Shown: one piece after another, positions 963-15,298 of the stretch
How positions within the stretch are numbered: the stretch's first letter is position 1
Layout of the letters: each line of letters begins with the position of its first letter
DNA from: Thermodesulfobacteriota bacterium
GTDB taxonomy: Bacteria; Desulfobacterota; WTBG01; CAIYCZ01; CAIRTM01
Assembly: GCA_028282925.1 (NCBI GenBank)
Contig: JANQGV010000012.1
Span: 7,787 to 71,786, forward strand
DNA: 64,000 nucleotides
Direction: 5' to 3'
Notes under the pieces: generated by a model
Seen by the model: the letters and a program-made list of their open reading frames with translations, nothing else
What the model was told of the DNA's origin: nothing
The model's database searches: none
Position numbers and translations under genes: made by a program

Positions 963-991
963 TTGACTTTTCGGGAATTCTTTTATACAGT
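963..991 (+). promoter_or_regulatory. Putative sigma-70 promoter for the riboswitch-btuFCD operon
   Basis: TTGACT at 963-968, a 17-nt spacer, then TACAGT at 986-991, just upstream of the riboswitch aptamer. Confidence 0.3.
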
Positions 992-999
992 CAAAACAG

Positions 1000-1205
1000 T
1001 TCAGGTGCTCATTTCGAGCATAACAGGGAACTCCGTGTGATTCGGAGACGGGCCCGCCGCTGTAATCGGGGACGAACGCCGCAACCATGTCACTGTTTCG
1101 ATGAATCGAAATGGGAAGACGCGGCCAGTAGAATGATCCGTAAGTCAGAAGACCTACCTGGGCAGAGGACACGACCGCCGTGGCACCGGAGGTTGTCCGC
1201 ATATG
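1000..1205 (+). promoter_or_regulatory. Cobalamin (B12) riboswitch, copy 1
   Basis: Conserved cobalamin-riboswitch elements read directly: AACAGGGAA...GGTGTGATTCGGAGACGGGCCCGCCGCTGTAA, then GTCACTG...GGGAAGACGCGGCC, and the B12 box AAGTCAGAAGACCTACCTGG. It lies directly upstream of a btuF-like gene. Confidence 0.8.
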
Positions 1206-1295: not shown

Positions 1296-2210
1296 ATGAT
1301 CATGCGAACAGCTTTTTTTGTTATTACTTTGCTGGCCGGTTTGTTTTTGCTGCCGCCCGGACCTTCCACCACTCACGCCGGAACTGTACGAGACCATATG
1401 AACAGGGAGGTCATGGTTCCGGAAAATCCGCAGAGAATAGTAGCGCTGGCTCCAAGTGTTACCGAGATAGTATTTGCACTGGGCCAGGGGCACCGGCTTA
1501 AAGGGGTGACCCTCTTCAGCAATTACCCTCCATCTGCTGAAAAGCTTCCCAGGGTGGGCTCTTACGTCCATCCCGAAATTGAAAGAATTGCGGCGCTGAA
1601 GCCGGACCTGTGTATCGGCATCAGGGACGGTAACCCGGTGCAGATCGTCGGGCAACTGGATACATTACGCATCCCTCTCTATATAGTCAATCCGGTGGAC
1701 CTTGAGACGGTTATGGAATCCATTGTGCTGATCGGCACCATCCTGGATGCCCGTGCGCAGGCACAGAAGCTTGTGCAAAAAATGGCTGTCGGCATTCAGC
1801 AGGTCAAGCAGCGGACTGCAATGAGCGCCCATCGGCCGCGGGTTTTTTTTCAGATCGGTATTGCCCCCATAGTTTCGGCGGGAGCACATACTTTTATTCA
1901 TGAAATCATCAAAGCAGCAGGTGGCAAAAACTGCGCGGCGGGCCCTGCGCCCTATCCGCGTTTTTCGCGCGAAGAAGTTCTGGTTCTGGCCCCGGAGGTT
2001 ATTATTATAACTTCCATGGCCCGGGCATCATCGGAACGCTTCGATGAGGTTAAAAAGGTGTGGAGTTCATGGACGAACATACCGGCGGTGCGCAACAATC
2101 GCATACATGTCGTCGATTCAGATATCTTTGATCGTCCCGGACCCCGCATGGTTGAAGGCTTAATGGTGTTGGCGAGTCTTCTGCATCCGGAGCTATACAC
2201 TCATGACTAG
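1296..2210 (+). CDS. btuF: ABC transporter periplasmic substrate-binding protein, cobalamin/siderophore class (BtuF/FecB-like)
   Basis: Signal peptide present. Class III SBP features include LAPSVTEIVFALG and PDLCIG. Sits under a B12 riboswitch and is followed by a FecCD permease and an ATPase. Confidence 0.85.
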   Translation: MIMRTAFFVITLLAGLFLLPPGPSTTHAGTVRDHMNREVMVPENPQRIVALAPSVTEIVFALGQGHRLKGVTLFSNYPPSAEKLPRVGSYVHPEIERIAALKPDLCIGIRDGNPVQIVGQLDTLRIPLYIVNPVDLETVMESIVLIGTILDARAQAQKLVQKMAVGIQQVKQRTAMSAHRPRVFFQIGIAPIVSAGAHTFIHEIIKAAGGKNCAAGPAPYPRFSREEVLVLAPEVIIITSMARASSERFDEVKKVWSSWTNIPAVRNNRIHVVDSDIFDRPGPRMVEGLMVLASLLHPELYTHD

Positions 2211-3207
2211 TACGCCTGTGCTGAATCGCATTCTGTCCGCCTCGGTAATACTTCTAATCGTATTGCTGGCGGCCGTCTTCCTCGGGATTTCCACGGGACC
2301 CGCGGGCACCGGATTCAAAGAGGTTCTCAATTCCCTCTCAGGCAAGCAGCCGGACGACCAGTTTCTGGAGTCCGTTATATGGCGTTTGCGGTTTCCCCGG
2401 GTGCTGATGGCCGCGCTGGTGGGTGCAGCACTTTCTCTGGGAGGACTGGTGTTTCAGGCAATCCTGCGCAATCCTCTTGCCGAACCGTACATACTGGGCG
2501 TTTCCGGAGGGTCCGCCATCGGTGCCATCATCGGCATTCTGCTGGGGCTTGCGCGCTTTCCCGGCGTTAGCCTGTGTGCGTTTATAGGCAGCATGGGCAC
2601 GCTGCTGCTGGTGCTTTTCATCTCCTCCGGCCGGACAATTCTCAAAAAAGATTCCCTGTTGCTTTCGGGAGTGATAATCAACGCCTTTTGTTCCGCAGTC
2701 ATTATGTTCCTGATCTCTATGGCACAGGATTACCGGCTGCACAGCATCATGTACTGGATGATGGGGGACCTTTCGTCTGCCGACCTTTCACAAATCGGTA
2801 TCCTGGCCTGTATGGTTATTCCCTGTTTTTTATTGATTTTTCTGCTTGCCCACGCCATGAATGCCCTTCTTATGGGAGAGGATATGGCCGGATCTATGGG
2901 GATACACGTACGTGCTGTCATTGCGGGGCTGCTTGTTACAACATCATTTATGGTCAGTGTTACGGTCTGCTACTGCGGCCTGCTGGGCTTTGTGGGGCTC
3001 GTGATGCCCCATATGCTGCGGTTGCTGCTGGGCCCAGACCACAGGGTTTTGGTTCCGGCATGCCTTATAGGCGGTGGAGCCTATATGATCATTTGCGATA
3101 TGCTGGCGCGGGTTCTCCCCCGGCAGGGTGAGATGCCCTGCGGGGTCATCACCGCAATGATAGGTGCCCCGGTTTTCATTTTTCTGCTGCGGAGGGCCAG
3201 ACGGTGA
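2203..3207 (+). CDS. btuC: ABC transporter permease, FecCD family (BtuC-like)
   Basis: 334 aa, about 9-10 predicted TM helices, with the typical FecCD motifs RxPRxL and GGxxYM. Translationally coupled to flanking genes (overlaps by 8 and 4 nt). Confidence 0.9.
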   Translation: MTSTPVLNRILSASVILLIVLLAAVFLGISTGPAGTGFKEVLNSLSGKQPDDQFLESVIWRLRFPRVLMAALVGAALSLGGLVFQAILRNPLAEPYILGVSGGSAIGAIIGILLGLARFPGVSLCAFIGSMGTLLLVLFISSGRTILKKDSLLLSGVIINAFCSAVIMFLISMAQDYRLHSIMYWMMGDLSSADLSQIGILACMVIPCFLLIFLLAHAMNALLMGEDMAGSMGIHVRAVIAGLLVTTSFMVSVTVCYCGLLGFVGLVMPHMLRLLLGPDHRVLVPACLIGGGAYMIICDMLARVLPRQGEMPCGVITAMIGAPVFIFLLRRARR

Positions 3208-4007
3208 ACGCTGCCTTAACCGCTCATACTCTGAGCTATTCATTCAAAAACAACCGTGTCGTGCAGGGAGTTTCATTTACCGTTAGCGCCGGGGCGTTTT
3301 TCGTCGTTATCGGTCCCAACGGATCGGGCAAAACAACCCTTCTGAAAATGCTGTGCGGCATAGCGAAGCCTGAAACGGGCACTGTAGAAATCTTTGGGCG
3401 GAAACTGCGAGAGTATGGACGCGCTGCGCTGGCAAGAGCCGTTGCGCTGGTGCCGCAGATTATGCCGCTCAACTTTCCGTTTACCGTGCAGGAAGCGGTT
3501 TTGTTGGGCCGCACACCCCATCTGGGCCTGATAGGCCTGGAGCGTCATGCGGATCTGGAGATCGCCCGACAGGCGATGGAGTTTACCGACATTGATCATC
3601 TTTCGCAAAGGAAAATAGACCAGCTAAGCGGTGGAGAGCTGCAGCGCGTTTTCATTGCACGCGCTATCTGCCAGCAGCCGCGCATCATACTGCTTGATGA
3701 GCCCACCGCATCGCTGGATCTATCGCACCAGGTGCGCATAATGGATTTAATGGAAAAATTACGAGTCGAGCAGGGAATTACCGTTGTCCTGGTTTCTCAT
3801 GACGTGAATCTGGCTGCCATGTATGCCGATACGTTGCTGCTGCTTGAAAAGGGGCACATAGCGGGCAGCGGATCTCCTGCCGGCGTGCTTTGCCGGGAGG
3901 TCATCGAATCGGTGTACGGATGTCCGGTTGTGATCGACAAAAACCCTCTGGGACAAACACCACGAGTAACGCCGGTTCCGGCCCTATCCAGCAAAATTGG
4001 AGAATGA
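3204..4007 (+). CDS. btuD: ABC transporter ATP-binding protein (BtuD/FepC-like)
   Basis: Walker A GPNGSGKTT, signature LSGGELQRV, Walker B ILLLDEP, H-loop SHD. Confidence 0.9.
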   Translation: MNAALTAHTLSYSFKNNRVVQGVSFTVSAGAFFVVIGPNGSGKTTLLKMLCGIAKPETGTVEIFGRKLREYGRAALARAVALVPQIMPLNFPFTVQEAVLLGRTPHLGLIGLERHADLEIARQAMEFTDIDHLSQRKIDQLSGGELQRVFIARAICQQPRIILLDEPTASLDLSHQVRIMDLMEKLRVEQGITVVLVSHDVNLAAMYADTLLLLEKGHIAGSGSPAGVLCREVIESVYGCPVVIDKNPLGQTPRVTPVPALSSKIGE

Positions 4008-5517
4008 TTCTATGAGATTTTTATTACACCCCATGAACGTCCCGGCAATCATAATCTTGTGTCTGGCCTGTTTGGGCTTTGCCGGGGGGGCGACACATGC
4101 GGAGACACTCTTTGTTGTGACAACCGATTATGAATCGGGGGGGCATTCGGTTCTGGATACCCAAAGCTTTTCGGCAAGCACACACCAGGGCACGATTTTT
4201 CAGGACGCTGTTGTCCGCAGCTTCGGTGACAACGTGTATGTTGTCGAGCGCTGGCACGGTGACAATATCCTTATTTATCATAAAAACAATCTGGAAAAAC
4301 CGGTGCGCCAGTTTTCAGTCGGCAGCGGAACCAATCCCCATGACTTCCTGCTTTTGAGTGAAACCCGGGCCTATGTGACGCTTTACGAGGAGTCGGAGCT
4401 TCTTATCGTAAATCCTCAAACCGGCTTACGGACCGGCTCCATAGACCTTTCGGCCTATGCCGATGCTGACGGTATTCCGGAAATGGATCTCATGATTCGA
4501 TACGGCGATTATGTATTCGTGTCCCTTCAAAGGCTCGATCGAACCAGGATGTTTCAGCCCACGGGGACAAGTGCCGTCGTTGTTATCGATTTGCGCACGG
4601 ACACCATTGTAGACACTGACCCGCGGCAGCCGGGCACCCAGGCTATCGAGCTGACCCGCACGAATCCTGTTGATATGCAGTATGTGGCGGCGACAGGTAA
4701 AATACTGGTCGCTGAAGCCGGCAGCTACTACACTACCGACGACGGCGGGCTGGAGTTTGTGGACCCGGTTGCGCTTACAGGAGAAGGCGTCCTCATGACC
4801 GAAGCCGAGCTGGGTGGGCAAATCGGCGGGGCCTTTGGAGCCTTGACCATGACGGACAGTGACCAGGGGTATGCCATAATCATGACCGAGGACTGGCTTG
4901 AGTCCCGGGTGGTACGCTTTAATATTGAAACCCGCAGCGCCCGCGCGGTGCATGCGCCGAACTCCGGATTTGTGCATTCGGATATTCTGCTGCGTAACGA
5001 TCTACTGTATGTTTGTGATCGAACGCGGTATGCCCCGGGCATACGGATTTTCGACACCCGTAGCGACAATGAGATTACTTCCCAACCGATCGAAACAGGG
5101 CTTCCACCGTTCTGCCTGACAGCCATCGGGGCCGACGACATGCCGACAGGCGTGCCCGGTTCATCCGTACCCGACAATGATACGCAGCCTGAGGAGTCGA
5201 TGCAATTTGTGACGGCCGTTCTTTCGAACTCCGACATGCCTGTATTTACAGACGTTTTTGTTTTTAATGCCGACGGGTCGTTTGTTTTGAAAAAATTTGA
5301 GCAATACGGCAGCGGTGATTTCTATTATATAACACCGACCCTTGTTCATTTTATTTTCAATAACGGCGCCGCCGTTGATATCCAGTATATCCAGGGTACC
5401 GGAATAGTTCTTAACGGCTTGACCGACCGGCTGATTTTCGGTGCGGGCAGCTATATGATAGATTACTCAATTTTCCCGATGCTCTTTGCGGGCCGGGAAG
5501 TTATGGCCCCGCAGTAA
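3997..5517 (+). CDS. Secreted surface protein with a YncE-like beta-propeller N-domain (BtuG-like candidate) and a C-terminal domain paralogous to ORF 7725-8189. True start probably at M4012 (MRFLLHP...)
   Basis: Signal peptide IIILCLACLGFAGGATHA. Residues ~80-150 (NVYVVERWHGDN...FSVGSGTNPHDFLL...LIVNPQTGL) align with the N-terminus of ORF 13105-15219. Its position between btuFCD and a BtuB-like receptor mirrors Bacteroidetes btuG. The C-terminal ~110 aa match ORF 7725-8189. Confidence 0.6.
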   Translation: MENDSMRFLLHPMNVPAIIILCLACLGFAGGATHAETLFVVTTDYESGGHSVLDTQSFSASTHQGTIFQDAVVRSFGDNVYVVERWHGDNILIYHKNNLEKPVRQFSVGSGTNPHDFLLLSETRAYVTLYEESELLIVNPQTGLRTGSIDLSAYADADGIPEMDLMIRYGDYVFVSLQRLDRTRMFQPTGTSAVVVIDLRTDTIVDTDPRQPGTQAIELTRTNPVDMQYVAATGKILVAEAGSYYTTDDGGLEFVDPVALTGEGVLMTEAELGGQIGGAFGALTMTDSDQGYAIIMTEDWLESRVVRFNIETRSARAVHAPNSGFVHSDILLRNDLLYVCDRTRYAPGIRIFDTRSDNEITSQPIETGLPPFCLTAIGADDMPTGVPGSSVPDNDTQPEESMQFVTAVLSNSDMPVFTDVFVFNADGSFVLKKFEQYGSGDFYYITPTLVHFIFNNGAAVDIQYIQGTGIVLNGLTDRLIFGAGSYMIDYSIFPMLFAGREVMAPQ

Positions 5518-5523
5518 AGATAT

Positions 5524-7656
5524 ATGACACACTGTTTCGGAGGTACCATTGCCGTTTTGTTCCATAGAGGGTTTCTGCTGATGCTTGCCGCCTCAAGCAT
5601 AATAACACTATTTCCGCCCCGGATGTATGCGCAGGAACAGTATCGGCTCGGAGAGGTGGTCGTCAGTGCCGAACAGCATGACGGCCCGACTTCCGGATCA
5701 GCCGATGCGACCGGGTTTGCAACGGTGATTCAGGTTGATGAGTTGCCTTCGCAGGTGACCTCTCTGCCGGAGGTCCTGGATCAGGCAGTGGGTGTTACGG
5801 TAAAACAGCACGGGGGGCTGGGCAGTTTCAGCACCATTTCCATCAGGGGTTCGTCTTCTGAACAGGTTGTCATCTATCTTGACGGTATTCTGTTAAACAA
5901 GGCGGTATCGGGTGTTGTCGATCTGGCGGACATTCCTCTCGACAGCCTGGAAAAAATAGAGATATACCGCGGAACCTCTCCGGCACGGTTCGGTGGATCG
6001 GGTATCGGCGGTGTTGTTAATCTCGTTACCCGGTCCGCCAAAAAACCGTTGAGCGTCAGGGCCGGGTACTCATTCGGTTCGTTCGAAACCCACAAAGCCA
6101 ATCTGTATCTTGCCGGTTCAACCGATAGCCTGACCGGCACTCTGATATATAATCGCCTGCAAAGCGATGGTGATTTCGAGTTCAAAGATGACCGGGGAAC
6201 GGCATACAACAGATCCGACGACCGCCGGACCCACCGGCGCAACAATACGCTCACCGCCGACAATCTTATCGCCAAAGGCAGCTATGCGTTCCCCGGCGGA
6301 TTGGTGCTCAGCGCCCATACCGATATCTTCAAAAAGCACCGTGGTGTTCCGGGTATCGGCAGCTACCAGTCCCGGCAGGCGCGGCTGCGGACATTCCGGA
6401 GCCTTTCGCAGGTGAGGATGACAAAAAGAAACGCATTTACCCCGGGACTGGACGTGGAATTGAGCTGCTCCTACAGTTATCAGCGCCAGAAGTTCAGGGA
6501 TCTGAAGGATGAAATCGGCCTGGGACGCCAGAACAACACGGATGACACAAAAAACAGTACCGTCAGGCTGCTGGTATCCTATATGCCGGGGGAGATACAC
6601 TCCTTCACGCTGCTTGGTGAAATTTCCCGTGAAACCTATGAGTCCCGGGACAAGCTGGCAAGCCTTTCCGAGCCGGATTCCGGCAGTACAATCAGCTGGA
6701 TGTACGGCTTTGTCGAAAATGCACGCGATAACAACCGCCGAATAACACGCACCGATGAGCAGAAACGATATAGCTATACGATGAGCCTCGAGGATGAAAT
6801 CTATCTCTTCAACGACAGACTGCTCATATCGCCTTCCGCAAAAATCAATTACTACCAAAACGATTTTAAAGGTGCCGTACCGTTTTCCTCGGTTCCCATA
6901 GCGCCCGAGGCCGATACCGCTGAAACGCATTTGACGCGTAAACTGGGTATGGCTTTTTTCATCACAGATGGACTGAAGCTGAAGGCCAACATCGGCAAGT
7001 ATTATCGAATACCCAATTTTTACGAGCTGTTCGGCGACCGCGGTGCCGTTGTGGGCAATACGGACCTGGAGCCCGAAGACGGCCTTGTCTGGGATGTCGG
7101 CCTTACATTTACCGGAAGGCCGTTTCCTTCGATTATCAAATCCTGCACCCTGGAATACTCATATTTCTATAATGATGTCGATGATCTGATTATTTTTATC
7201 CAGAACTCACAGCGCACATCCATCGCCCAAAACATTTCCAGCGCTCAAGTCAAGGGACATGAGTTTTTCTGGCGCATCCGGTTTTGCCGGCCCATACTGA
7301 TTTCCGGCAACCTTACCATTCAGGACACCCGCGACCGGAGCCGTACTGCCTACTGGCGCAACAACAGGCTGCCGGGCCGCCCGAAATATGAGCTGTTCAA
7401 CCGTGTTGAGGTTTTTTCGGAACATTTCCGACTGTTTCATGAAATTGAATTCATTGATGAGAGCTGGCTTGACCGGGCCAATATAAAAAAGATCGACCGG
7501 CGAACATTTCAAAATGCAGGCATTTCCTGGAGCCCGGTCAAACAGATTGTATTCACATTTGAGGTGAAAAACATCACCGACCGACACAGTGAAGATGTTA
7601 TCGGATACCCCCTGCCGGGGCGAACGTTTTTCGGGACACTGGATGTGTTTTATTAA
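5524..7656 (+). CDS. btuB: TonB-dependent outer-membrane receptor (BtuB-like). True start probably near 5581 (MLAASSIITLF...)
   Basis: Signal peptide, TonB box GEVVVSAE, plug-domain motifs (IRGSSSEQV, IEIYRGTS, SGIGGVVNLVT), and a long beta-barrel with a C-terminal aromatic residue. Confidence 0.85.
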   Translation: MTHCFGGTIAVLFHRGFLLMLAASSIITLFPPRMYAQEQYRLGEVVVSAEQHDGPTSGSADATGFATVIQVDELPSQVTSLPEVLDQAVGVTVKQHGGLGSFSTISIRGSSSEQVVIYLDGILLNKAVSGVVDLADIPLDSLEKIEIYRGTSPARFGGSGIGGVVNLVTRSAKKPLSVRAGYSFGSFETHKANLYLAGSTDSLTGTLIYNRLQSDGDFEFKDDRGTAYNRSDDRRTHRRNNTLTADNLIAKGSYAFPGGLVLSAHTDIFKKHRGVPGIGSYQSRQARLRTFRSLSQVRMTKRNAFTPGLDVELSCSYSYQRQKFRDLKDEIGLGRQNNTDDTKNSTVRLLVSYMPGEIHSFTLLGEISRETYESRDKLASLSEPDSGSTISWMYGFVENARDNNRRITRTDEQKRYSYTMSLEDEIYLFNDRLLISPSAKINYYQNDFKGAVPFSSVPIAPEADTAETHLTRKLGMAFFITDGLKLKANIGKYYRIPNFYELFGDRGAVVGNTDLEPEDGLVWDVGLTFTGRPFPSIIKSCTLEYSYFYNDVDDLIIFIQNSQRTSIAQNISSAQVKGHEFFWRIRFCRPILISGNLTIQDTRDRSRTAYWRNNRLPGRPKYELFNRVEVFSEHFRLFHEIEFIDESWLDRANIKKIDRRTFQNAGISWSPVKQIVFTFEVKNITDRHSEDVIGYPLPGRTFFGTLDVFY

Positions 7657-8865: not shown

Positions 8866-8958
8866 AAATATCACGTAGCAGTTTTAGCGTTCATTGCATT
8901 CAATGCCGTACGGCAAAAGAAGACATTTTTAAGAACGTTTCCCTTGGAGGGAGTTATT

Positions 8959-9585
8959 ATGCTTGAGCTCATTACAAAAGGGGGGATGCTCATGATCCCC
9001 ATAGCGGCGTGCTCAATAATAGGGCTGGCCATTATTATTGAACGGTCTTTTCGGCTTATGAAAAATAATCATTCCATTGATGCGGTGCTCAGCCCGGTAC
9101 TTGATGAAATAGAACAGGGGAGGGCTAAAGAAGCTTTTAAAAAAATCCAGTCTGTGCCGGGGCCCATCCCACGGGTCATATCTGCCGGCATTCAGGCCTA
9201 TGTCCGCTACCGGCAGGAACAGTATGTTGAGAAAGCACTTGTCCGAACCGGGTCCCGCGAACTGGCGTTGCTGGAGCAGAACCTGCGCGGCCTGAACGTT
9301 ATTGCCAATGTTGCACCTCTGCTGGGATTGCTGGGAACCGTTACCGGCATGATCAAAGCTTTTATGCAAATACAGCTGCAGGGCGGCACCGTCAACGCCG
9401 CGAGCCTGGCCGGGGGAATCTGGGAAGCAATGCTGACAACGGCCGCCGGCCTGTGTGTGGCCATCCCCTGCCTGCTGCTGTATAATTACTACATGGGCCG
9501 GATCAATAGAGTTGAGGCCGCCATGAAAAATGCTGCAATGGACCTGGTTGAAGTTATCCGCGAGAGGAAAGATGATGGAGTTTAA
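8959..9585 (+). CDS. exbB: MotA/TolQ/ExbB proton-channel protein
   Basis: Three TM segments and conserved NVAPLLGLLGTVTGMIKAF...GGIWEAMLTTAAGL. Confidence 0.85.
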   Translation: MLELITKGGMLMIPIAACSIIGLAIIIERSFRLMKNNHSIDAVLSPVLDEIEQGRAKEAFKKIQSVPGPIPRVISAGIQAYVRYRQEQYVEKALVRTGSRELALLEQNLRGLNVIANVAPLLGLLGTVTGMIKAFMQIQLQGGTVNAASLAGGIWEAMLTTAAGLCVAIPCLLLYNYYMGRINRVEAAMKNAAMDLVEVIRERKDDGV

Positions 9586-9994
9586 CCGTCCAAACCGTCC
9601 CACCGGCGATATCAGCCTGACGCCGATTATCGATATGGTGTTTCTTTTGCTGATTTTTTTTCTGCTGACCTCCAGTTTTATGAAGGATCAGGGCATCACC
9701 GTCAACCTGCCGTCATCGGCGTCGCCCCTTGCGCAGAAGCCGGAAAGCGTGACCGTCAGTATCGATCAGGATAAAATAATCTATATCAACAGCAGCCGGA
9801 CAACACTGCCGCGACTGGAAAAGGATCTTCAGGGTGCATACCATACCACGGGGGCAAAAAACGTAATAATCAAAGCGGACACCGCCAATTCAATTCAGCT
9901 GCTGATACGGGTAATGGATGTCGTTAATGCTTCGGGGGCGGAAAGCCTTACCCTGGCAACCAAGATGGAACTATCACCGGCTCAGGACCAATGA
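9572..9994 (+). CDS. exbD: ExbD/TolR biopolymer transport protein
   Basis: LTPIIDMVFLLLIFFLLTSSF N-terminal TM segment and the periplasmic domain fold typical of ExbD. The start is set at MMEFNRP because the ORF-track start overlaps exbB. Confidence 0.85.
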   Translation: MMEFNRPNRPTGDISLTPIIDMVFLLLIFFLLTSSFMKDQGITVNLPSSASPLAQKPESVTVSIDQDKIIYINSSRTTLPRLEKDLQGAYHTTGAKNVIIKADTANSIQLLIRVMDVVNASGAESLTLATKMELSPAQDQ

Positions 9995-10707
9995 TCCCGG
10001 TCAGGCGAAATACCTTTGCCATACCTCTGCTTGTATCAACGGCCCTGCATGCCCTGCTTGCGGCACTCCTGTTTTACACACCTTCAAATGTCGCCGAGCG
10101 GCATTCATCGTCACGCCACATTACATTCAATTTCAAGCAGGTTTTGCAAAAGCAGAAACCGGTACCACAACAGAAATCGCAGGAAAAAGTGGTTTCAAAG
10201 AAGAAACATACGCAAGAACCTTTGAAAAAGCCTGTAATAGAAAAAACGCTTACATCTTCACAGCCAAAGGCGGTTTCCCTGCCTGAGCCACAGCCTGTAG
10301 AGGCGGTCGAACCTGTGCCGAAGGCGAAAAATAATCCGGTAATGAAAAAAAGGGTAGAAAATCCTGCCGCTGAATCCGCATCCGCGCCGGATTCCCGCGC
10401 TCTTGCCGAACAAAAACGCGCTATAGACGAATTCCTCGCACAGATCCTGTGTCGTATCGAACAGGCGAAACGCTATCCCCGTGCAGCCCGTCGGCGGGGC
10501 GTGACAGGAACCGTCACCTGCCGGTTTGTCATTGCCCGTGACGGTACACTGCAGAGTGCAGAGGTGCATTCCGCCGCCAGGCATGCCGCCCTCAACAGGG
10601 CGGCCCTTGCCGCAATTCGCAACGGGGCACCCTATCCAGAATTCCCGTCGTATATAAACGGGGAAACGTTCTCTTCGCTTGTTGATATTGTATTCAAGAT
10701 TAAGTAA
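9991..10707 (+). CDS. tonB: Energy transducer TonB
   Basis: N-terminal TM anchor, Pro/Lys-rich spacer (PVPQQKSQEK...PEPQPVEAVEPVPK) and C-terminal TonB domain (RYPRAARRRGVTGTVTCRFVIARDGTL...NGAPYPEFP). Confidence 0.85.
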   Translation: MIPVRRNTFAIPLLVSTALHALLAALLFYTPSNVAERHSSSRHITFNFKQVLQKQKPVPQQKSQEKVVSKKKHTQEPLKKPVIEKTLTSSQPKAVSLPEPQPVEAVEPVPKAKNNPVMKKRVENPAAESASAPDSRALAEQKRAIDEFLAQILCRIEQAKRYPRAARRRGVTGTVTCRFVIARDGTLQSAEVHSAARHAALNRAALAAIRNGAPYPEFPSYINGETFSSLVDIVFKIK

Positions 10708-10849
10708 CACAGCGCCGCATATAACTTTAGTTGTATGTGAAAAACACACCCTACGTTATATTGACGGCGGGATGCAGGGTGTGAGATACTACAGAAGTAA
10801 TAAAAAGCATATAACCGGGTGCCTTACCGGAAGGATCTTGCGATACTGA

Positions 10850-11045
10850 TCAATATCCCTCGGGTAAGCAAATAGGGAAAACGGTGCAAATCCGTTGCGG
10901 ACCCGCCGCTGTAACCCTGTCCTTTTGTGCGATTTGCAAAAAAGGAACCCTTTGGCCGTAATGCCACTGTTCCGATAGGGCGGAATGGGAAGGTGGTCAA
11001 AGGGGCTGGGAAGCCAGAAGACCTGCCCGGGTAATGAGATCCCAA
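10850..11045 (+). promoter_or_regulatory. Cobalamin riboswitch, copy 2
   Basis: AATAGGGAAAACGGTGCAAATCCGTTGCGGACCCGCCGCTGTAACC, ATGCCACTG...GGGAAGGTGG, and B12 box GAAGCCAGAAGACCTGCCCGG. A close paralogue of copy 3. Confidence 0.8.
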
Positions 11046-11093: not shown

Positions 11094-11136
11094 GGAATCC
11101 CTGCGTGAAAAGGCACGCAGGGATTCTTTTATTTTA
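11094..11136 (+). terminator. Rho-independent terminator, expression platform of riboswitch 2
   Basis: AATCCCTGCGTG-aaaagg-CACGCAGGGATT followed by CTTTTATTTT, about 17 nt before ATG 11153. Confidence 0.55.
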
Positions 11137-11152: not shown

Positions 11153-12991
11153 ATGAAAAAATGTTTTTTTGTATTGTCGGCAGTACTGATATGCATCCAG
11201 GGGTTGTGTATGCCATCGACAACGTGCGCTGCCGATCCTCCCCTGGAGTATGTACTGCAGGGGACGTGTTATGTTGATACGGATGCAAACGGCACGTTCG
11301 ACGTAACCGAGCAGGGCATAGACAATGCGACCGTAACGCTCACCAGGCTGCTGTTCGGTATTATTCCGGTGGAGTCACAAACTACGCATACGGATCCTGG
11401 TGGAAATTATTCATTTGCGGATCTGGGTTTCGGTTTCTATGCTGTTCACTGCGATCCCCCCCTTAAAACCGAATCCCTGTCGGCAAATCCTGCTATTGCA
11501 TTGCTTTCTTTTTTTCAGCCAAACCGCACCATTGACTTCGGATTCTCCGTGACACCGGCAGCTTATCCCGTGTCGGTTAGCATAAGCGCCGAACCGGGCC
11601 AGATAACCCGTGGTGATTCCACGGTTCTGAGCTGGAACGCGATGTATGCCGAACGGGTCAGCATCGATAACGGTATTGGAGAGGTTGCAATGTCCGGAAG
11701 TCTTACGCTCTCTCCATCGGACAATACAACCTACACCGCAATCGCAGAAAGAAAAGGGGAAACGGCAGGCGCGAGCGTTACGGTTGCTGTGCTGGTGCCG
11801 GCACCTCCGCCCACTTCTTCATCAACATCATCGGTCCCGCCAACAACAACCACCACCACGGTATCGTCCGGTGGTGGAAGCGGTAAGCCGAGTTCATCTA
11901 CAACCTCAATTCTTCCTGATCCGCCTTCTCCGGTGTCCGGTATGATAGCTGCTCCCGGCGATGCCAAGATTGGGCTGGCATGGTCAAACCCTGATGATTC
12001 CAGTTGGGCCGGCACCCTGATCGTACGCAGCCAGGACGATTATCCGTTCTCCCCCGATGAAGGGGATGTGGTTTATGACGGTATCGAATCGGACTGGGTC
12101 GATGAAGATCTGGAAAACAACATTGAATACTATTACACGGCCTTTTCTTATTCCGCAGGCCCCAGTTATGCTGCAGTAGATAATGGCTCGCGGGCAGCGG
12201 CAACCCCGCTGGCGATTACCGATTCCAGCACATCGGACTGGCGCAACCAGCCCGACCCTTTTGCCGACCGCCTTGTCACCTATGAATCGGCGGTGCTTGT
12301 ATACGATGCCGAGGGTGAACCGTATCCCTACGGCAGGGATGCTTTGCCGGATGTTGTCCTGGGGCCGCCTGTCAGCGACCAGGAGAATGGGGGCGGCTTT
12401 CATGTTTTATCCCTTGGGGCGCAAAGCTATTCTGATAACAATACCTGTGATCCATGCGGCGGGTATATTATAGTGCAATTCACCGACAACATCATCGTTA
12501 ATGGGCCGGGAGATGATTTTACCGTCTTTGAAAACCCTTTCATAATTACTGCTGGCCATCAAAATATTGGCGGTGCCTTTATGGAACCGGCGGTCGTATC
12601 GGTAAGCCAGGACGGGGACACCTTTTATCAATTTCCCTGTGATTTTGTGCCTCCTGCAATTGAGGATCCTACACGCGATGATCTTATACTGCACTGCACT
12701 AATCCCGATAATTATCCAACAGGTTTTGCCGGAATACATCCCGTTCATTCCATCGGCCTGGAGCCTGATCCGACAGACCCGGCAGTTTCAGGCGGCGACA
12801 GCTTCGACCTTGACGACCTGGACGGCATATCGCTCAGATGGATTCAATATGTAAAAATTCAGTCGACGGGCGACAACTGGATGCTGGACTCGGACGGTGA
12901 TGTTATACGTCATGATCCAGAGACATACGCATGCGCTGGAACAGAAAATTCCGGCTTTGATCTAGATGCCGTCAGCGCAATACATTACTGA
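11153..12991 (+). CDS. Large secreted multidomain protein (Ig-like domain, Thr/Ser/Pro linker, FN3-like domain) with a conserved C-terminal domain shared with ORF 13105-15219. Riboswitch-controlled candidate corrinoid-binding surface protein
   Basis: Signal peptide MKKCFFVLSAVLICIQGLCM. Low-complexity PPPTSSSTSSVPPTTTTTTVSSGGGSGKPSSSTTS linker. The C-terminal ~250 aa (GGYIIVQFTDNIIVNGPGDDFTVFENPF...GFAGIH...SGFDLDAVSAIHY) align with the second protein. The C-domain may correspond to a DUF4465-like (BtuH-type) fold; I cannot confirm this without a search. Confidence 0.7.
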   Translation: MKKCFFVLSAVLICIQGLCMPSTTCAADPPLEYVLQGTCYVDTDANGTFDVTEQGIDNATVTLTRLLFGIIPVESQTTHTDPGGNYSFADLGFGFYAVHCDPPLKTESLSANPAIALLSFFQPNRTIDFGFSVTPAAYPVSVSISAEPGQITRGDSTVLSWNAMYAERVSIDNGIGEVAMSGSLTLSPSDNTTYTAIAERKGETAGASVTVAVLVPAPPPTSSSTSSVPPTTTTTTVSSGGGSGKPSSSTTSILPDPPSPVSGMIAAPGDAKIGLAWSNPDDSSWAGTLIVRSQDDYPFSPDEGDVVYDGIESDWVDEDLENNIEYYYTAFSYSAGPSYAAVDNGSRAAATPLAITDSSTSDWRNQPDPFADRLVTYESAVLVYDAEGEPYPYGRDALPDVVLGPPVSDQENGGGFHVLSLGAQSYSDNNTCDPCGGYIIVQFTDNIIVNGPGDDFTVFENPFIITAGHQNIGGAFMEPAVVSVSQDGDTFYQFPCDFVPPAIEDPTRDDLILHCTNPDNYPTGFAGIHPVHSIGLEPDPTDPAVSGGDSFDLDDLDGISLRWIQYVKIQSTGDNWMLDSDGDVIRHDPETYACAGTENSGFDLDAVSAIHY

Positions 12992-13104
12992 TGTATTCAT
13001 AACTATAATTATCAACAAACGAAAGGGGGTGATAGTACTGAAAAGAAACAACCGGTTTTTTTTACTTCCAATAACTCATGTACAGATAAAGGAGATACAT
13101 CACT

Positions 13105-15219
13105 ATGAAAAAGGTTTTTAAAGCTATGCTCATCTGTCTGGCCCTGACATCAATTGCTTTCGGCAATGCCGGAGCCTATCCTTTCAGCGTCAGTACCGAC
13201 ATCCGGTCCGGCATCAACCAGGACAACCGGGTCGTCTGCTTCAACGAAAAAGCATATGTAATCGAACGGGCCGGCCAGTACGCTTCCGGCGACGGTACCA
13301 TTACCGTGCTGTCCCTGAACGATCTTGCCGGAACACCGGAAGCAAGCTACAGTGTCGGCACCAGCTCCAACCCCTACGACATTGCCTTTCACGACGCGAA
13401 CAAGGCCTACGTTTCACGTTACAATATGGGTGATGTGGCCATTATCGATCCGACCGACGGAACCCTGCAGGGCACCATTGCGCCGAAAGATTACGGGTGC
13501 GATACCTCCGCCACCCCGTCATATCTGCACGTCGTGCAGAACTGGAACGGGTTTTCACGGGTGGACAGCCGCCTTTTTATCGGTGTGCAGGACGGATGGG
13601 GCAATCCCGGCAAGGTGCTGGTGTTCGACACCGATACCGACGCCCATCTGGCAACCATTTCGCTGACCCTGCAAAACCCCAACGCCGACATGGACTACAA
13701 TGACGGCCAGCTGTATGTCAGTTGCACCGGCGACTGGAGTACGCCCGCAACCGCCGGTGTGGAGGTCATAGATGTCATGACCCAGTCGGGGGGTAGTTAC
13801 ACCTATTCGTCCTACGTGCTCGGCACGGCGGCCGATTTTGAGACAAATGCGGTAACAGTGCATGATATCGAAATCGTCAATAACAGCCTCTGGTTTGTGG
13901 TAGTGGGTAAAAACTGGGGATATGATTATAATATCGTCAAAATCGACCCCTATTCGGCGGCATACATTGAAAGCCTGTATGCGTCATATACTTCCGATTA
14001 TGTAGGCGAGCTGCAGGCGTACATGCCGTCGTACCTTTTTATCAGCCAGTCAGACAAAAAGAGCTCAACCGGCACGCTGTTTCCCGTGTACGATTTTATG
14101 CAGGAAGCCTTTATCGACCCGGTGAGCGCCGGAACCGAAGTAGTCTACTCGCTGACGGCGCACCGTGAGATGGTGCTGGCAACAACCTCAAACTATAGCT
14201 GGCAGAATCCGGCCGGCTATCTCGACAGCATCGAGCTTGCAAACCCGGCCTATACGTCGGCCGCAACAACAGTGGAGAGCCTGGTGCGCGGTCCCATCGA
14301 CATCAGCGATCCCGGCGGAGATCTGGCAAGCTACGGCAGCGAAGCCGACGCCCTGGGCGCATACGACGGCAACGTGGTATCATTGGGCGATGGTGGATCA
14401 ATTGTACTGAGCTTTGGTGCGAACACGGTTCTGGACAACCGGGACGGCCCTGATCTCGGAGTGTATGAAAACGGTTTTTTCCAGAACTGGCCCCTGAACG
14501 CAGGATATACGGGCTATTTTTTCGAGCTGGGTTTTGTGGAAGTATCCAGTGATGGTATTAATTTTGCCCGGTTCCCCACGAAAACGGTCCGCATGACGGC
14601 TGTTGGCGGATTTGATATGCTGCAGCCCCTGGACTACTTCGGCTTTGCCGGAAATTCGCTGGGAAGCGTCAGTTGTAATTACGACCTGGACGCTCTTGCC
14701 AATGATCCGCTGGTGCTGGACGGCACCGTTGATCTGGATCTGGTCCGCTATGTGCGTATTGTGGATGTCATCGGCGACGGCAGCACATCCGACAGCCTGG
14801 GCAGTCCGGTGTATGATCCGTATCCTACCGCCTTTTCAAGCGGCGGGTTCGACCTGGATGCGGTTGAAGCCTTTGTCAAGGAAGATCCGACCCTGATACA
14901 CCTTGCGGAACTGGAAGCCGTTCCGGGCAGCAACAGTGTAACGATTGAATGGAAAACGGAGAGCGAGATCGACAATGCCGGGTTCAATGTCTACCGGGCG
15001 GCTGCAGGAGATGCCGACTTCGTGCAGATCAACAGCACGCTGATTCCCGCCCAGGGCTCTGTCGCAGAGAGTGCGGCATACACTTTCACCGACGAGGACG
15101 CCAGAAACCGCCGGTCCTACCAGTATATGATTGAGGATATCGATCTGAACGGTACGGCAACCATGCACGGCCCCGTGAATGCCATGCCGCTTCTCATCTA
15201 CAGCCTGATACAGAAATAG
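13105..15219 (+). CDS. Large secreted protein: N-terminal YncE-like beta-propeller (paralogous to ORF 3997-5517), a conserved C-domain shared with ORF 11153-12991, and an FN3-like tail
   Basis: Signal peptide MKKVFKAMLICLALTSIAFGNAGA. KAYVIERAGQYASGDGTITVLSLNDLAG...YSVGTSSNPYDIAF aligns with the 506-aa protein. The C-domain (GNVVSLGDGGSIVLSFGAN...GPDLGVYENGFF...FGFAGNSLG...GGFDLDAVEAF) aligns with ORF 11153. RBS AAAGGAG lies 8 nt upstream. Confidence 0.7.
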   Translation: MKKVFKAMLICLALTSIAFGNAGAYPFSVSTDIRSGINQDNRVVCFNEKAYVIERAGQYASGDGTITVLSLNDLAGTPEASYSVGTSSNPYDIAFHDANKAYVSRYNMGDVAIIDPTDGTLQGTIAPKDYGCDTSATPSYLHVVQNWNGFSRVDSRLFIGVQDGWGNPGKVLVFDTDTDAHLATISLTLQNPNADMDYNDGQLYVSCTGDWSTPATAGVEVIDVMTQSGGSYTYSSYVLGTAADFETNAVTVHDIEIVNNSLWFVVVGKNWGYDYNIVKIDPYSAAYIESLYASYTSDYVGELQAYMPSYLFISQSDKKSSTGTLFPVYDFMQEAFIDPVSAGTEVVYSLTAHREMVLATTSNYSWQNPAGYLDSIELANPAYTSAATTVESLVRGPIDISDPGGDLASYGSEADALGAYDGNVVSLGDGGSIVLSFGANTVLDNRDGPDLGVYENGFFQNWPLNAGYTGYFFELGFVEVSSDGINFARFPTKTVRMTAVGGFDMLQPLDYFGFAGNSLGSVSCNYDLDALANDPLVLDGTVDLDLVRYVRIVDVIGDGSTSDSLGSPVYDPYPTAFSSGGFDLDAVEAFVKEDPTLIHLAELEAVPGSNSVTIEWKTESEIDNAGFNVYRAAAGDADFVQINSTLIPAQGSVAESAAYTFTDEDARNRRSYQYMIEDIDLNGTATMHGPVNAMPLLIYSLIQK

Positions 15220-15259: not shown

Positions 15260-15298
15260 GGGCAAACCGAACCACCCCGGGTTTGCCCTGTTTTTTTG
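15260..15298 (+). terminator. Rho-independent terminator after the riboswitch-2 operon
   Basis: GGGCAAACCGAACCACCCCGGGTTTGCCC followed by TGTTTTTTTGCC. Confidence 0.6.

What the first reader, a model, noticed from the sequence alone, without database searches (positions are those of the whole stretch)
11153..15219. Riboswitch-controlled operon of two large secreted proteins sharing a novel C-terminal domain: candidate corrinoid-capture surface proteins outside Bacteroidetes
Riboswitch 2 regulates only these two genes, not a transporter. Both are Sec-exported multidomain proteins (Ig-like/FN3-like modules, a TSP-rich linker). They share a ~250-aa C-terminal domain (…GPGDDFTVFENPF / GPDLGVYENGFF … FGFAG … SGFDLDAV…). 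The second protein also has an N-terminal YncE-like propeller like the BtuG-like protein at 3997. B12 repression of extracellular proteins with no enzymatic motif suggests a B12-scavenging role analogous to Bacteroides BtuG/BtuH surface lipoproteins. The shared domain may be DUF4465-like, but I cannot verify that here. In a Desulfobacterota-like genome this would be a new instance.
Basis: partly seen in the sequence, partly recalled or inferred. Interest (0 to 1): 0.75.

Follow-up and report, generated by a model that had tools for sequence, protein, structure and literature searches.

The report
B12-repressed BtuH-like corrinoid-capture proteins
A vitamin-B12 riboswitch switches on two exported proteins whose shared domain has the fold of BtuH, the B12-binding surface protein of gut Bacteroides, which suggests that this B12-scavenging module is widespread well beyond that phylum.

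Summary
A cobalamin riboswitch (10800-11044, 84.8 bits) with a 14-bp terminator precedes a two-gene operon: ORF1 (11153-12991) and ORF2 (13105-15219). Both proteins have signal peptides and share one domain (32% identity, E 2e-8). In ORF2 that domain is internal, not C-terminal.

ORF1 (Ig-like stalk plus head) resembles BtuH2. ORF2 (propeller plus head) resembles the BtuG-BtuH fusion BtuG1.

The family has no Pfam model and is large: 3,182 50%-identity clusters at E<=1e-10. In 59 of 80 genomes from a dozen or more phyla, a cobalamin riboswitch lies upstream on the same strand, often with a BtuB-like receptor.

The best reading is exported corrinoid-capture proteins feeding the neighbouring BtuB/TonB/BtuFCD system. 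B12 binding and cellular location are untested, and neither protein is a lipoprotein. This is a new variant of a known kind.

The parts
10761..10790 (+). Sigma-70-like promoter candidate (TTGACG-18-GATACT, with a TG extension) just upstream of riboswitch 2
   Evidence: Consensus scan only. Its position fits an independent transcription start.
10800..11044 (+). Cobalamin riboswitch aptamer (RF00174), 'riboswitch 2'
   Evidence: Rfam score 84.8 bits against a gathering score of 31.5, full-length model match. It is conserved in front of the orthologous gene pair in L084 and L085.
11094..11136 (+). Expression platform: intrinsic terminator with a 14-bp stem (8 G-C pairs) followed by TTTTATTTT. It ends 17 nt before the ORF1 ATG.
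   Evidence: Terminator scan. The hairpin is present in the MFE and centroid folds; the 141-nt stretch folds at -48.4 kcal/mol, z -2.9.
11153..12991 (+). ORF1, 612 aa, a BtuH2-like exported protein (signal peptide, Ig-like/FN3-like stalk, BtuH-like head)
   Evidence: Orthologues of 615 and 627 aa sit at the same position in L084 and L085.
11153..11233 (+). ORF1 signal peptide (MKKCFFVLSAVLICIQGLCMPSTTCA|ADPP), signal-peptidase-I type, no canonical lipobox
   Evidence: Read from the translation. The cleavage site is inferred.
11267..11467 (+). ORF1 SdrD_B-like (CnaB-type) beta-sandwich, aa 39-105
   Evidence: Pfam PF17210, E 8.5e-9, 36 bits against a cutoff of 29.7.
11798..11935 (+). ORF1 Pro/Thr/Ser-rich linker, aa 216-261. 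An Ig-like module (aa ~135-215) lies before it and an FN3-like module (aa ~262-350) after it.
   Evidence: Read from the translation. The flanking modules are inferred from sequence pattern only. A weak match of ORF1 aa 266-328 to the ORF2 tail has E 0.27.
12242..12988 (+). ORF1 BtuH-like putative corrinoid-binding domain, aa 364-612. N461, F463 and E478 correspond to BtuH2 N399, F401 and E406.
13105..15219 (+). ORF2, 704 aa, a BtuG1(BtuGH)-like exported protein (signal peptide, propeller, BtuH-like domain, beta-sandwich tail)
13177..14229 (+). ORF2 YncE/BtuG-like beta-propeller, aa 25-375
   Evidence: 26% identity to ORF 3997, E 3e-14. A profile built without Bacteroidota sequences hits BtuG3, BtuG2 and BtuG1 at E 2e-14 to 1e-10. 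The AF2 model is confident for aa 40-292 only. The best single-domain Foldseek hits are BtuG2, BtuG3 and BtuG1.
14242..14889 (+). ORF2 BtuH-like domain, aa 380-595. N456, F458 and E474 correspond to BtuH2 N399, F401 and E406.
   Evidence: 32% identity to the ORF1 domain, E 2e-8. Family HMM E 3e-47. The nearest homologues are fused to DUF4465 plus PEP-CTERM or T9SS signals.
14896..15189 (+). ORF2 C-terminal FN3/Ig-like beta-sandwich, aa 598-695
   Evidence: AF2 predicts an all-beta domain, mostly pLDDT 75-92. No Pfam hit. It is similar to internal modules of P0140-P0142.
15260..15297 (+). Terminator-like hairpin (GGGCAAACC...GGTTTGCCC followed by a T-run) that closes the operon
   Evidence: Read from the sequence. 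The scan detects part of it.
986..1175 (+). Riboswitch 1, heading the neighbouring uptake operon (context, likely functional partner)
   Evidence: Rfam 109.3 bits.
1296..4007 (+). btuF-, btuC- and btuD-like genes for a periplasmic binding protein and ABC importer
   Evidence: Pfam Peripla_BP_2, FecCD and ABC_tran.
3997..5517 (+). BtuG-like propeller protein (506 aa) immediately upstream of the receptor. It is a paralogue of the ORF2 N-terminus.
5524..7656 (+). BtuB-like TonB-dependent receptor, the probable acceptor of captured corrinoid
   Evidence: Pfam Plug and TonB_dep_Rec_b-barrel. The best NCBIfam hit is TonB-B12 (TIGR01779), E 8e-48, which is below that model's cutoff.
8944..10707 (+). 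exbB, exbD and tonB, the energy-transduction genes directly upstream of riboswitch 2
   Evidence: Pfam MotA_ExbB, ExbD and TonB_C.

Best explanation
ORF1 and ORF2 are exported corrinoid-capture proteins. They are distant non-Bacteroidota relatives of BtuH2 (an Ig-like stalk with a B12-binding head) and of BtuG1/BtuGH (a BtuG propeller fused to a BtuH domain).

Proposed mechanism:
- When intracellular cobalamin is low, the riboswitch 2 aptamer is empty, the terminator at 11094-11136 does not form, and the bicistronic mRNA is made.
- Both proteins cross the inner membrane through Sec.
- Their BtuH-like domains, and probably the ORF2 propeller, bind corrinoids through the corrin ring and the nucleotide loop.
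- They pass the ligand to a BtuB-type TonB-dependent receptor. Candidates are 5524-7656, which has its own BtuG-like partner at 3997, and the riboswitch-3 receptor at 24415-26541.
- Uptake is energised by the adjacent ExbB-ExbD-TonB, and BtuFCD completes import.
- When B12 is replete, ligand binding to the aptamer lets the terminator form and switches the operon off.

Shown here: the riboswitch and terminator, the export signals, the fold and sequence relationship to BtuH and BtuG, and the conserved genomic linkage.

Inferred: B12 binding, location outside the outer membrane, and hand-over to the receptor.
For: Regulation:
- Rfam cobalamin aptamer plus terminator directly upstream.
- The riboswitch is conserved before the orthologous gene pair in L084 and L085 (107-118 bits with my model; Rfam 76.5 bits).
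- In L003 the pair follows tonB directly, inside the uptake operon.

Fold:
- The Foldseek top hit is 8blw_B.

Sequence:
- The family profile hits BtuG1 residues 436-499 at E 0.0015.
- BtuH2 'GNAFDGSSEP' aligns with the family motif 'FENPF...EP'. N399 contacts the B12 phosphate, F401 contacts DMB, and E406 is a metal-site ligand (PMC8941943, PMC13616437).
- These correspond to positions conserved in 60, 48 and 58 of 60 family members, and in both ORFs.

Architecture:
- It mirrors BtuH2 and BtuG1 (PMC10404256, PMC8941943).

Comparative genomics:
- 59 of 80 loci have a same-strand upstream cobalamin riboswitch hit of >=20 bits, and 46 have one of >=30 bits.
- 10 of the 17 loci without any hit have less than 2.5 kb of upstream sequence.
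- Only 5 hits lie elsewhere.
- Rfam confirmed 7 of 7 strong loci and 3 of 7 weak loci.
- 28 loci carry a same-strand TonB-dependent receptor and 26 a BtuG-like propeller.

Fusions:
- Close relatives of the ORF2 domain are fused to DUF4465 (BtuJ-type B12 binder) and to PEP-CTERM or T9SS sorting signals. Other family members carry T9SS tails or dockerins. This points to an extracellular role for the family.
Against: - No binding data exist for any member of this non-Bacteroidota family.
- Identity to BtuH is only 23-27%. Only the N-terminal half of the domain aligns by sequence.
- The corrin-contacting residues of BtuH2 (Q333, H476, Y510, W511, W577) could not be mapped, because I had no coordinates for a superposition.
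- Unlike BtuG and BtuH, neither ORF is a lipoprotein, and neither carries a recognisable outer-membrane or surface sorting signal. By default, a Sec substrate in a diderm ends up in the periplasm.
- The last blades of the ORF2 propeller model are unreliable (aa 295-376, pLDDT <50). The propeller is only modestly closer to BtuG than to YncE.
- ORF2 is not adjacent to a receptor gene.
Confidence: 0.75

Rival explanations
1. The fold and ligand are the same, but the compartment differs. The proteins stay in the periplasm and act as a corrinoid buffer or chaperone between the outer-membrane receptor and BtuF, or hold corrinoids for remodelling. They would not capture ligand at the cell surface.
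For: Both proteins have plain signal-peptidase-I signal peptides with no lipobox, T9SS, PEP-CTERM or dockerin signal. In a diderm the default destination is the periplasm. In L003 the genes follow tonB within the uptake operon.
Against: The long Ig/FN3 stalk and Pro/Thr/Ser-rich linker of ORF1 are typical of extracellular proteins. Other family members carry T9SS tails, PEP-CTERM motifs, dockerins or lipoboxes. The characterised homologues BtuH and BtuG are surface-exposed (PMC8941943, PMC10404256). A BtuG-like propeller is known to act as an extracellular lid on BtuB.
Confidence: 0.15
2. The domain is a lectin or carbohydrate-binding module of the discoidin/CBM32 type. The proteins would be adhesins or glycan binders that happen to be B12-regulated, for example to attach to corrinoid-producing partners, and would not bind corrinoids themselves.
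Confidence: 0.05
3. The domain binds a different tetrapyrrole or metal complex, such as haem, a cobalt-free corrinoid precursor or a metallophore. B12 control would reflect cross-regulation of cobalt or tetrapyrrole supply, as with the riboswitch-4 CobN/ChlID-like genes in the same window.
For: Peripla_BP_2/FecCD importers and TonB-dependent receptors of this type also serve haem and siderophores. The receptor at 5524-7656 scores below the BtuB equivalog cutoff. CobN-like chelatase genes are riboswitch-controlled nearby.
Against: The conserved N and F positions contact the phosphate and lower-ligand region that is specific to complete cobamides in BtuH2 (PMC8941943). Nothing links the fold to haem. 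The association is with cobalamin riboswitches specifically.
Confidence: 0.05

Closest known systems
BtuH2 (BT_1956) of Bacteroides thetaiotaomicron, PDB 7BIZ (Putnam et al. 2022, PMC8941943)
   Same: - An N-terminal stalk of Ig-like modules followed by a C-terminal globular domain.
- N399, F401 and E406 are conserved.
- The gene sits in a cobalamin-riboswitch-controlled B12 uptake locus.
   Different: - BtuH2 is a surface lipoprotein with the Bacteroides lipoprotein export signal. ORF1 has a signal-peptidase-I signal peptide.
- The stalk modules differ: PKD in BtuH2, SdrD_B/Ig/FN3 plus a Pro/Thr/Ser linker in ORF1.
- Sequence similarity is detectable only with profiles and only in the N-terminal half of the domain.
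- The corrin-contact residues were not mapped.
- The source is a Desulfobacterota-like MAG, not Bacteroidota.
BtuG1 / BtuGH (BT_1490), PDB 8BLW chain B (Abellon-Ruiz et al. 2023, PMC10404256)
   Same: - The domain order is the same as in ORF2: an N-terminal BtuG-type propeller followed by a BtuH-type domain.
- It is the only PDB sequence the family profile finds (E 0.0015).
- Its propeller is hit at E 1e-10 by a profile built without Bacteroidota sequences.
   Different: - BtuG1 is a lipoprotein encoded next to btuB1 and forms a stable lid complex with it.
- ORF2 is not next to a receptor gene, has no lipobox, and has an extra C-terminal beta-sandwich.
- ORF2 shares its operon only with ORF1, behind its own riboswitch.
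BtuG2 and BtuG3 (BT_1954, BT_2095), seven-bladed propeller lipoproteins that cap BtuB (Wexler et al. 2018, PMC6143338)
   Same: - The ORF2 N-terminus and ORF 3997 are YncE/YVTN-type propellers whose nearest characterised bacterial relatives are BtuG3 and BtuG2 (E 2e-14 to 1e-13; Foldseek E about 2e-8).
- ORF 3997 lies directly upstream of the BtuB-like receptor, as btuG does.
   Different: - BtuG was reported as exclusive to Bacteroidetes.
- Identity here is only 11-17%.
- The propeller model is incomplete.
- The discrimination from E. coli YncE is modest.
- ORF 3997 carries an extra C-terminal domain of about 110 aa, which is also encoded separately at 7725-8189.
BtuJ1, BtuJ2 and the DUF4465 family (PF14717; PMC13398666)
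   Same: They are also exported, riboswitch-linked B12-binding modules found in several phyla. Close homologues of the ORF2 domain are physically fused to DUF4465 (P0128, P0130, P0134).
   Different: It is a different fold family (jelly-roll) with a different Pfam model. Neither ORF1 nor ORF2 matches PF14717 at E<0.1.
Hemophore systems such as HasA-HasR (comparison from general knowledge, analogy only)
   Same: A Sec- or otherwise exported soluble binding protein could capture a scarce tetrapyrrole and deliver it to a TonB-dependent receptor. This is a possible mode of action for the non-lipidated ORF1 and ORF2.
   Different: There is no sequence or fold relationship, and no evidence here for release into the medium.
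LIC_13355 family lipoprotein (NCBIfam NF033170, Leptospira)
   Same: It is the only curated protein-family model that touches the shared domain (ORF1 aa 435-557, E 3.7e-10). It is probably a distant branch of the same superfamily.
   Different: The score of 39.4 bits is far below the model's cutoff of 120, and ORF2 does not hit it. No function is known for that family.

Membership tests
BtuH-type B12-binding domain (BtuH1, BtuH2, BtuG1 H-domain) | Globular domain with the BtuH2 fold, described in 2022 as having no structural homologues | tested here: met
BtuH-type B12-binding domain (BtuH1, BtuH2, BtuG1 H-domain) | Detectable sequence homology to the BtuH domain | tested here: met
   The family profile A1 against PDB sequences hits only 8blw_B, at residues 436-499, E 0.0015. 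It does not reach 7biz directly. Single sequences find nothing. The match is weak and covers the N-terminal half only.
BtuH-type B12-binding domain (BtuH1, BtuH2, BtuG1 H-domain) | Nucleotide-loop and metal-site residues N399, F401 and E406 of BtuH2 | tested here: met
   BtuH2 'GNAFDGSSEP' and BtuG1 'GNASY...SAEP' align with ORF1 N461, F463, E478 and ORF2 N456, F458, E474. Conservation across the family is 60/60, 48/60 and 58/60.
BtuH-type B12-binding domain (BtuH1, BtuH2, BtuG1 H-domain) | Corrin-contact residues (Q333, H476, Y510, W511, W577) and the remaining metal ligands (D522, S582, E584) | tested here: inconclusive
   The C-terminal half does not align by HMM. No coordinates were available for a superposition. 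The motifs GGDxFD and GFDLDA are candidates only.
BtuH-type B12-binding domain (BtuH1, BtuH2, BtuG1 H-domain) | Encoded in a cobalamin-riboswitch-controlled locus together with btuB and btuFCD | tested here: met
   Shown for the window. Shown for orthologues. Shown for the family in 59 of 80 loci.
BtuH-type B12-binding domain (BtuH1, BtuH2, BtuG1 H-domain) | Surface-exposed lipoprotein (lipobox Cys plus Bacteroides export signal) | tested here: not met
   ORF1 and ORF2 have signal-peptidase-I-type signal peptides and no lipobox. Some Myxococcota family members do have a lipobox-like Cys.
BtuH-type B12-binding domain (BtuH1, BtuH2, BtuG1 H-domain) | Direct high-affinity binding of cobalamin | not testable with these tools
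   This needs a purified protein and UV-vis, ITC or SPR.
BtuG (propeller lid of BtuB) | Seven-bladed YncE-like beta-propeller related to BtuG1, BtuG2 and BtuG3 | tested here: inconclusive
   A profile without Bacteroidota sequences hits BtuG3, BtuG2 and BtuG1 at E 2e-14 to 1e-10, YncE at 2e-10 and the archaeal YVTN protein 1l0q at 4e-25. Foldseek on the ORF2 model gives BtuG2 at 2e-8 and YncE at 4e-7. The model is unreliable for aa 295-376, so the blade count is not established.
BtuG (propeller lid of BtuB) | Gene adjacent to btuB | tested here: not met
   ORF2 is about 5.4 kb downstream of the receptor at 5524-7656, in a separate operon. The paralogue ORF 3997 does meet this feature. In 26 of 80 family loci a propeller gene lies in the same locus, usually next to the receptor.
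DUF4465 / BtuJ (PF14717) | Match to the Pfam DUF4465 model | tested here: not met
   There is no hit at E<0.1 for ORF1 or ORF2. The same model scores 1e-42 to 1e-50 on the fusion partners P0128, P0130 and P0134, so the search works.
CBM32 / discoidin-type lectin domain | F5/8-type-C or CBM32 sequence signature, with the best structural matches to such domains | tested here: not met
Cobalamin riboswitch (RF00174) | Score above the Rfam gathering threshold, with a downstream expression platform | tested here: met
   84.8 bits against 31.5, a full-length match. The terminator hairpin is at 11094-11136. Ligand response was not tested.

The most novel reading that the evidence does not exclude
ORF1 and ORF2 lack any lipid or sorting anchor. 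They, and many members of this Pfam-less family of more than 3,000 clusters, could be released, soluble 'corrinophores'. These would be hemophore-like secreted proteins that capture cobamides away from the cell and dock onto BtuB/BtuG-type receptors. Protein-mediated extracellular B12 piracy would then be a general strategy of environmental diderm bacteria (Desulfobacterota, Myxococcota, Verrucomicrobiota, Planctomycetota and others), not a speciality of gut Bacteroidota.
Probability: 0.15. Interest if true: 0.8.

Novelty: new variant of a known kind. Interest (0 to 1): 0.55.

Why it matters
Cobamides are made by few microbes and needed by most, so how cells capture them shapes microbial communities.

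High-affinity accessory capture proteins (BtuG, BtuH) are so far characterised only in gut Bacteroides. BtuG was reported as exclusive to Bacteroidetes (PMC6143338). BtuH homologues are described as predominantly Bacteroidota, plus three Firmicutes (PMC13616437).

This locus, together with the 80-genome comparison, indicates three things:
- A divergent BtuH-like domain with no Pfam model is a common member of the cobalamin-riboswitch regulon in a dozen or more phyla.
- It is often paired or fused with BtuG-like propellers and BtuB-like receptors.
- It is sometimes fused with DUF4465.

If binding is confirmed, thousands of 'hypothetical' or 'cell surface' proteins would gain an annotation. The Bacteroides relay model would extend to sediment, soil and aquatic bacteria. 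It would also provide non-lipoprotein versions whose route to the cell surface is unknown.

Tried and rejected
- **Family libraries.** Pfam and NCBIfam scans of both ORFs gave nothing for the shared domain. The only touch was a sub-threshold LIC_13355 hit.
- **Single-sequence searches of PDB.** phmmer with ORF1 and ORF2 found nothing relevant. A Bacteroidales relative (P0132) also failed to reach BtuH.
- **Building a BtuH profile.** To run a profile-profile comparison I searched the 5.8-billion-protein set with a 64-aa BtuG1 fragment. It returned only three short fragments. Adding the fragments to the profile raised the PDB scores (8blw_B 4.5e-19, 7biz_A 8.9e-12). This is partly circular, so I used it only to map residues.
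- **C-terminal half of the domain.** It could not be aligned to BtuH by sequence, so eight of the eleven or so ligand and metal residues remain unmapped.
- **Organism identity.** The listing of cluster members gave no names or accessions. The organism is inferred only from relatives labelled 'Deltaproteobacteria bacterium'.
- **DUF4465 and DUF5074 membership.** Rejected on the Pfam result.
- **Chance co-location of the riboswitch.** Rejected because the linkage recurs in 59 of 80 loci that were retrieved by protein patterns alone.

Full report
**Observation**

The window carries four Rfam cobalamin riboswitches. The second lies at 10800-11044 on the + strand and scores 84.8 bits against a gathering score of 31.5, with a full-length model match. 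Around it are:
- a promoter-like site at 10761-10790;
- a 14-bp hairpin with 8 G-C pairs and a T-run at 11094-11136, which is present in both the MFE and centroid folds;
- an RBS and the ATG of ORF1.

ORF1 (11153-12991, 612 aa) and ORF2 (13105-15219, 704 aa) follow. After ORF2 there is a terminator-like hairpin at 15260-15297. The next genes, a GNAT acetyltransferase and metH, are on the opposite strand.

Both proteins start with signal-peptidase-I-type signal peptides and have no lipobox.

The shared domain is real. ORF1 aa 436-610 aligns with ORF2 aa 430-590 at 32% identity, E 2e-8. A family HMM hits only these two ORFs in the window. In ORF2 the domain is internal, because a beta-sandwich of about 100 aa follows it.

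The ORF2 N-terminus is a paralogue of ORF 3997-5517 (E 3e-14).

**Surroundings**

Riboswitch 1 heads an operon with these genes:
- btuF-, btuC- and btuD-like genes;
- the propeller protein at 3997;
- a BtuB-like TonB-dependent receptor at 5524-7656;
- a small ORF at 7725;
- a LuxR-type regulator;
- exbB, exbD and tonB.

Riboswitch 3 controls a second receptor, and riboswitch 4 controls CobN- and ChlI/D-like genes. The two ORFs therefore sit inside a dense B12 acquisition region.

**What the shared domain is**

Pfam finds nothing on it, including DUF4465 and DUF5074. NCBIfam gives only a sub-threshold LIC_13355 hit.

A homologue search found 689 relatives, all without Pfam annotation on this domain. 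Some are named 'cell surface protein'.

I built a 60-sequence alignment (A1) and an AlphaFold2 model of ORF1 aa 364-612, with pLDDT 88.8 and pTM 0.90.
- Foldseek against the PDB gives one significant hit, 8blw_B (E 7.7e-6).

Chain 8blw_B is BtuG1 (BT_1490) of Bacteroides thetaiotaomicron. It consists of a BtuG propeller with a C-terminal extension of about 250 residues that is homologous to BtuH2 and binds B12 (PMC10404256). Entry 7BIZ is BtuH2 with B12 bound (PMC8941943).

Sequence agrees independently. The A1 profile, searched against all PDB sequences, hits only BtuG1, and within its H-domain (residues 436-499, E 0.0015).

Using the printed BtuG1 fragment, I recovered the homologous BtuH2 stretch. 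The chain index plus 100 equals the numbering used in the paper. In that stretch, 'GNAFDGSSEP' contains N399 (which contacts the B12 phosphate), F401 (which contacts the lower ligand) and E406 (a metal-site ligand) (PMC8941943, PMC13616437). These align with the family motif 'FENPF...EP':
- ORF1: N461, F463, E478.
- ORF2: N456, F458, E474.
- Family conservation: 60/60, 48/60 and 58/60.

The C-terminal half of the domain did not align by sequence, so the corrin-contact residues remain unmapped.

**The propeller**

A profile of the window propellers and their relatives, built without any Bacteroidota sequence, gives these PDB hits:

| Target | E-value |
|---|---|
| Archaeal YVTN protein 1l0q | 4e-25 |
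| BtuG3, BtuG2, BtuG1 | 2e-14 to 1e-10 |
| E. coli YncE | 2e-10 |

The full ORF2 model has pLDDT 77.5. The propeller is confident only for aa 40-292, while the H-like domain and the tail are modelled well. Its best single-domain Foldseek matches are BtuG2, BtuG3 and BtuG1 (2e-8 to 1e-7), ahead of YncE (4e-7).

ORF2 thus has the BtuG1 domain order, propeller then H-domain, plus an extra tail. ORF1 has the BtuH2 plan, an Ig-like stalk then the H-domain. Its stalk is made of an SdrD_B module, an Ig-like module, a Pro/Thr/Ser linker and an FN3-like module.

**Comparative genomics**

Orthologues of ORF2 (51-75% identity) exist in a handful of MAGs.
- In L084 and L085 the whole arrangement is conserved: propeller, receptor, small ORF, LuxR, (ExbBD-TonB), riboswitch, ORF1-like, ORF2-like.
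- In L003, labelled a 'Deltaproteobacteria bacterium', the pair follows tonB directly with no riboswitch. There it belongs to the uptake operon itself.

A scan of one genome per species with protein patterns from A1 found 477 relatives, of which I kept the best 80 loci. I built a covariance model from the four window riboswitches and searched those loci.

| Result across the 80 loci | Count |
|---|---|
| Same-strand upstream hit of >=20 bits | 59 |
| Same-strand upstream hit of >=30 bits | 46 |
| No hit at all | 17 |
| ...of which less than 2.5 kb of upstream sequence | 10 |
| Hits of >=20 bits located elsewhere | 5 |

Rfam confirmed 7 of 7 strong loci and 3 of 7 weak loci. The retrieval used protein patterns only, so the association is not circular. 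From general knowledge, cobalamin riboswitches occur only a few times per genome, so chance would give about one hit.

Typical layouts in these loci are:
- riboswitch, receptor, (propeller), H-domain protein, btuFCD;
- riboswitch followed by a large protein ending in the domain (Verrucomicrobiota, Kiritimatiellia);
- riboswitch, an unknown ORF of about 430 aa, then a small 'cell surface protein' (Myxococcota).

Of the 80 loci, 28 have a same-strand receptor, 26 a BtuG-like propeller and 13 a btuF or btuC gene.

The labels on the records span many groups: Myxococcota, Verrucomicrobiota, Kiritimatiellia, Sumerlaeota, Gemmatimonadota, Planctomycetota, Nitrospirota, Ignavibacteriota (Melioribacter), Cytophagia, Chlamydiota, Omnitrophota and others.

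An exhaustive HMMER search of 1.84 billion cluster representatives finds 5,482 members at E<=1e-3, 3,182 at E<=1e-10 and 868 at E<=1e-30.

Close relatives of the ORF2 domain are fused to DUF4465 plus PEP-CTERM or T9SS tails. Other family members carry T9SS tails, dockerins or lipoboxes. This argues for an extracellular role for the family as a whole.

**Mechanism proposed**

Low B12 leaves the aptamer empty, the terminator does not form, and the operon is transcribed. Both proteins are exported through Sec. Their BtuH-like heads, and probably the ORF2 propeller, bind corrinoids through the ring and the nucleotide loop. They pass the ligand to a BtuB-type receptor that is energised by the adjacent TonB system, and BtuFCD imports it.

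Shown here are the RNA elements, the export signals, the homology and the conserved linkage. Inferred are ligand binding, location beyond the outer membrane, and hand-over to the receptor.

The main uncertainty is location. Unlike BtuG and BtuH, neither protein is a lipoprotein and neither has a recognisable sorting signal. A periplasmic role (rival 1) and a released, hemophore-like role (the novel case) both remain open. The lectin and other-ligand readings are unlikely (rivals 2 and 3).

**Comparison and novelty**

These proteins work like BtuH2 and BtuG1 and pass most membership tests: fold, weak sequence homology, three ligand-site residues and riboswitch/btuB linkage. They fail the lipoprotein criterion. 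The corrin-contact residues and actual binding remain untested.

The literature held here treats BtuG as exclusive to Bacteroidetes (PMC6143338) and BtuH as predominantly Bacteroidota (PMC13616437). All seven distinct works listed for both 'BtuH' and 'riboswitch' centre on Bacteroides thetaiotaomicron proteins; one of them also surveys DUF4465 homologues in other phyla.

The finding is therefore not a new kind of system. It is a divergent, non-lipidated variant of a known one. It belongs to a large unannotated family that extends BtuH/BtuG-type capture to many phyla.

Interest 0.55. Confidence in the main explanation 0.75.

Noticed in passing
window 7725-8189 (+) and window 5185-5514 (aa 397-506 of ORF 3997-5517): The small ORF after the BtuB-like receptor (154 aa, with a signal peptide) is 40% identical (E 4e-29) to the C-terminal ~110 aa of the BtuG-like propeller protein. 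It has no Pfam match. It keeps the same position in L003, L084 and L085. This looks like an uncharacterised small domain of B12 uptake operons.
   Followed up: partly
P0128, P0130, P0134 (metagenomic proteins): The closest relatives of the ORF2 H-like domain are fused in one polypeptide with DUF4465 (BtuJ-type B12 binder, Pfam E 1e-42 to 1e-50) and with a PEP-CTERM or T9SS sorting signal. Two different putative B12-binding modules are therefore combined on one surface protein.
   Followed up: partly
L001 8703-10004 (Hyalangium versicolor), with similar positions in L034, L036, L037, L039, L051, L052, L061, L071 and L078: In Myxococcota and Sumerlaeota loci, an unannotated ORF of about 430 aa lies between the cobalamin riboswitch and the small H-like 'cell surface protein'. 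It has no Pfam hit and jackhmmer did not detect it as a BtuG-like propeller. It is possibly another accessory B12-uptake protein.
   Followed up: partly
window 26582-26791 (-), 32675-32863 (-), 24415-26541 (-), 26852-32520 (-): Two further cobalamin riboswitches are present. One controls a second TonB-dependent receptor that has no adjacent propeller gene, which makes it a possible partner for ORF2. The other controls a CobN-like (1249 aa) and a ChlI/D-like (640 aa) chelatase pair. In all, four riboswitches lie within 33 kb.
   Followed up: no
window 8125-8865 (+): A LuxR/GerE-type regulator gene sits inside the riboswitch-1 B12 uptake operon, between the receptor and exbB. It is conserved at this position in L084 and L085. 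This suggests a protein-level regulatory layer on top of the riboswitches.
   Followed up: no
L003 5301-10074: In the nearest sequenced relative in the genome set (a 'Deltaproteobacteria bacterium' MAG), the ORF1-like and ORF2-like genes follow tonB with no intergenic riboswitch. The window, L084 and L085 have one. The internal riboswitch has therefore been gained or lost within this lineage. B. thetaiotaomicron operon 1 likewise has two riboswitches.
   Followed up: partly
L044, L062, L069, L072, L075: Propeller plus H-like-domain fusions of about 635-655 aa occur directly after a riboswitch-controlled receptor in Cytophagia and in unclassified bacteria. They bridge the window family and Bacteroides BtuG1. 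The L062 protein also has a FlgD-Ig-like C-terminal module.
   Followed up: partly
ORF1 aa 435-557 (window 12455-12823): There is a sub-threshold match (E 3.7e-10, 39 bits against a cutoff of 120) to the Leptospira LIC_13355 lipoprotein family (NF033170). That family of unknown function may be a distant branch of the BtuH-like superfamily.
   Followed up: no
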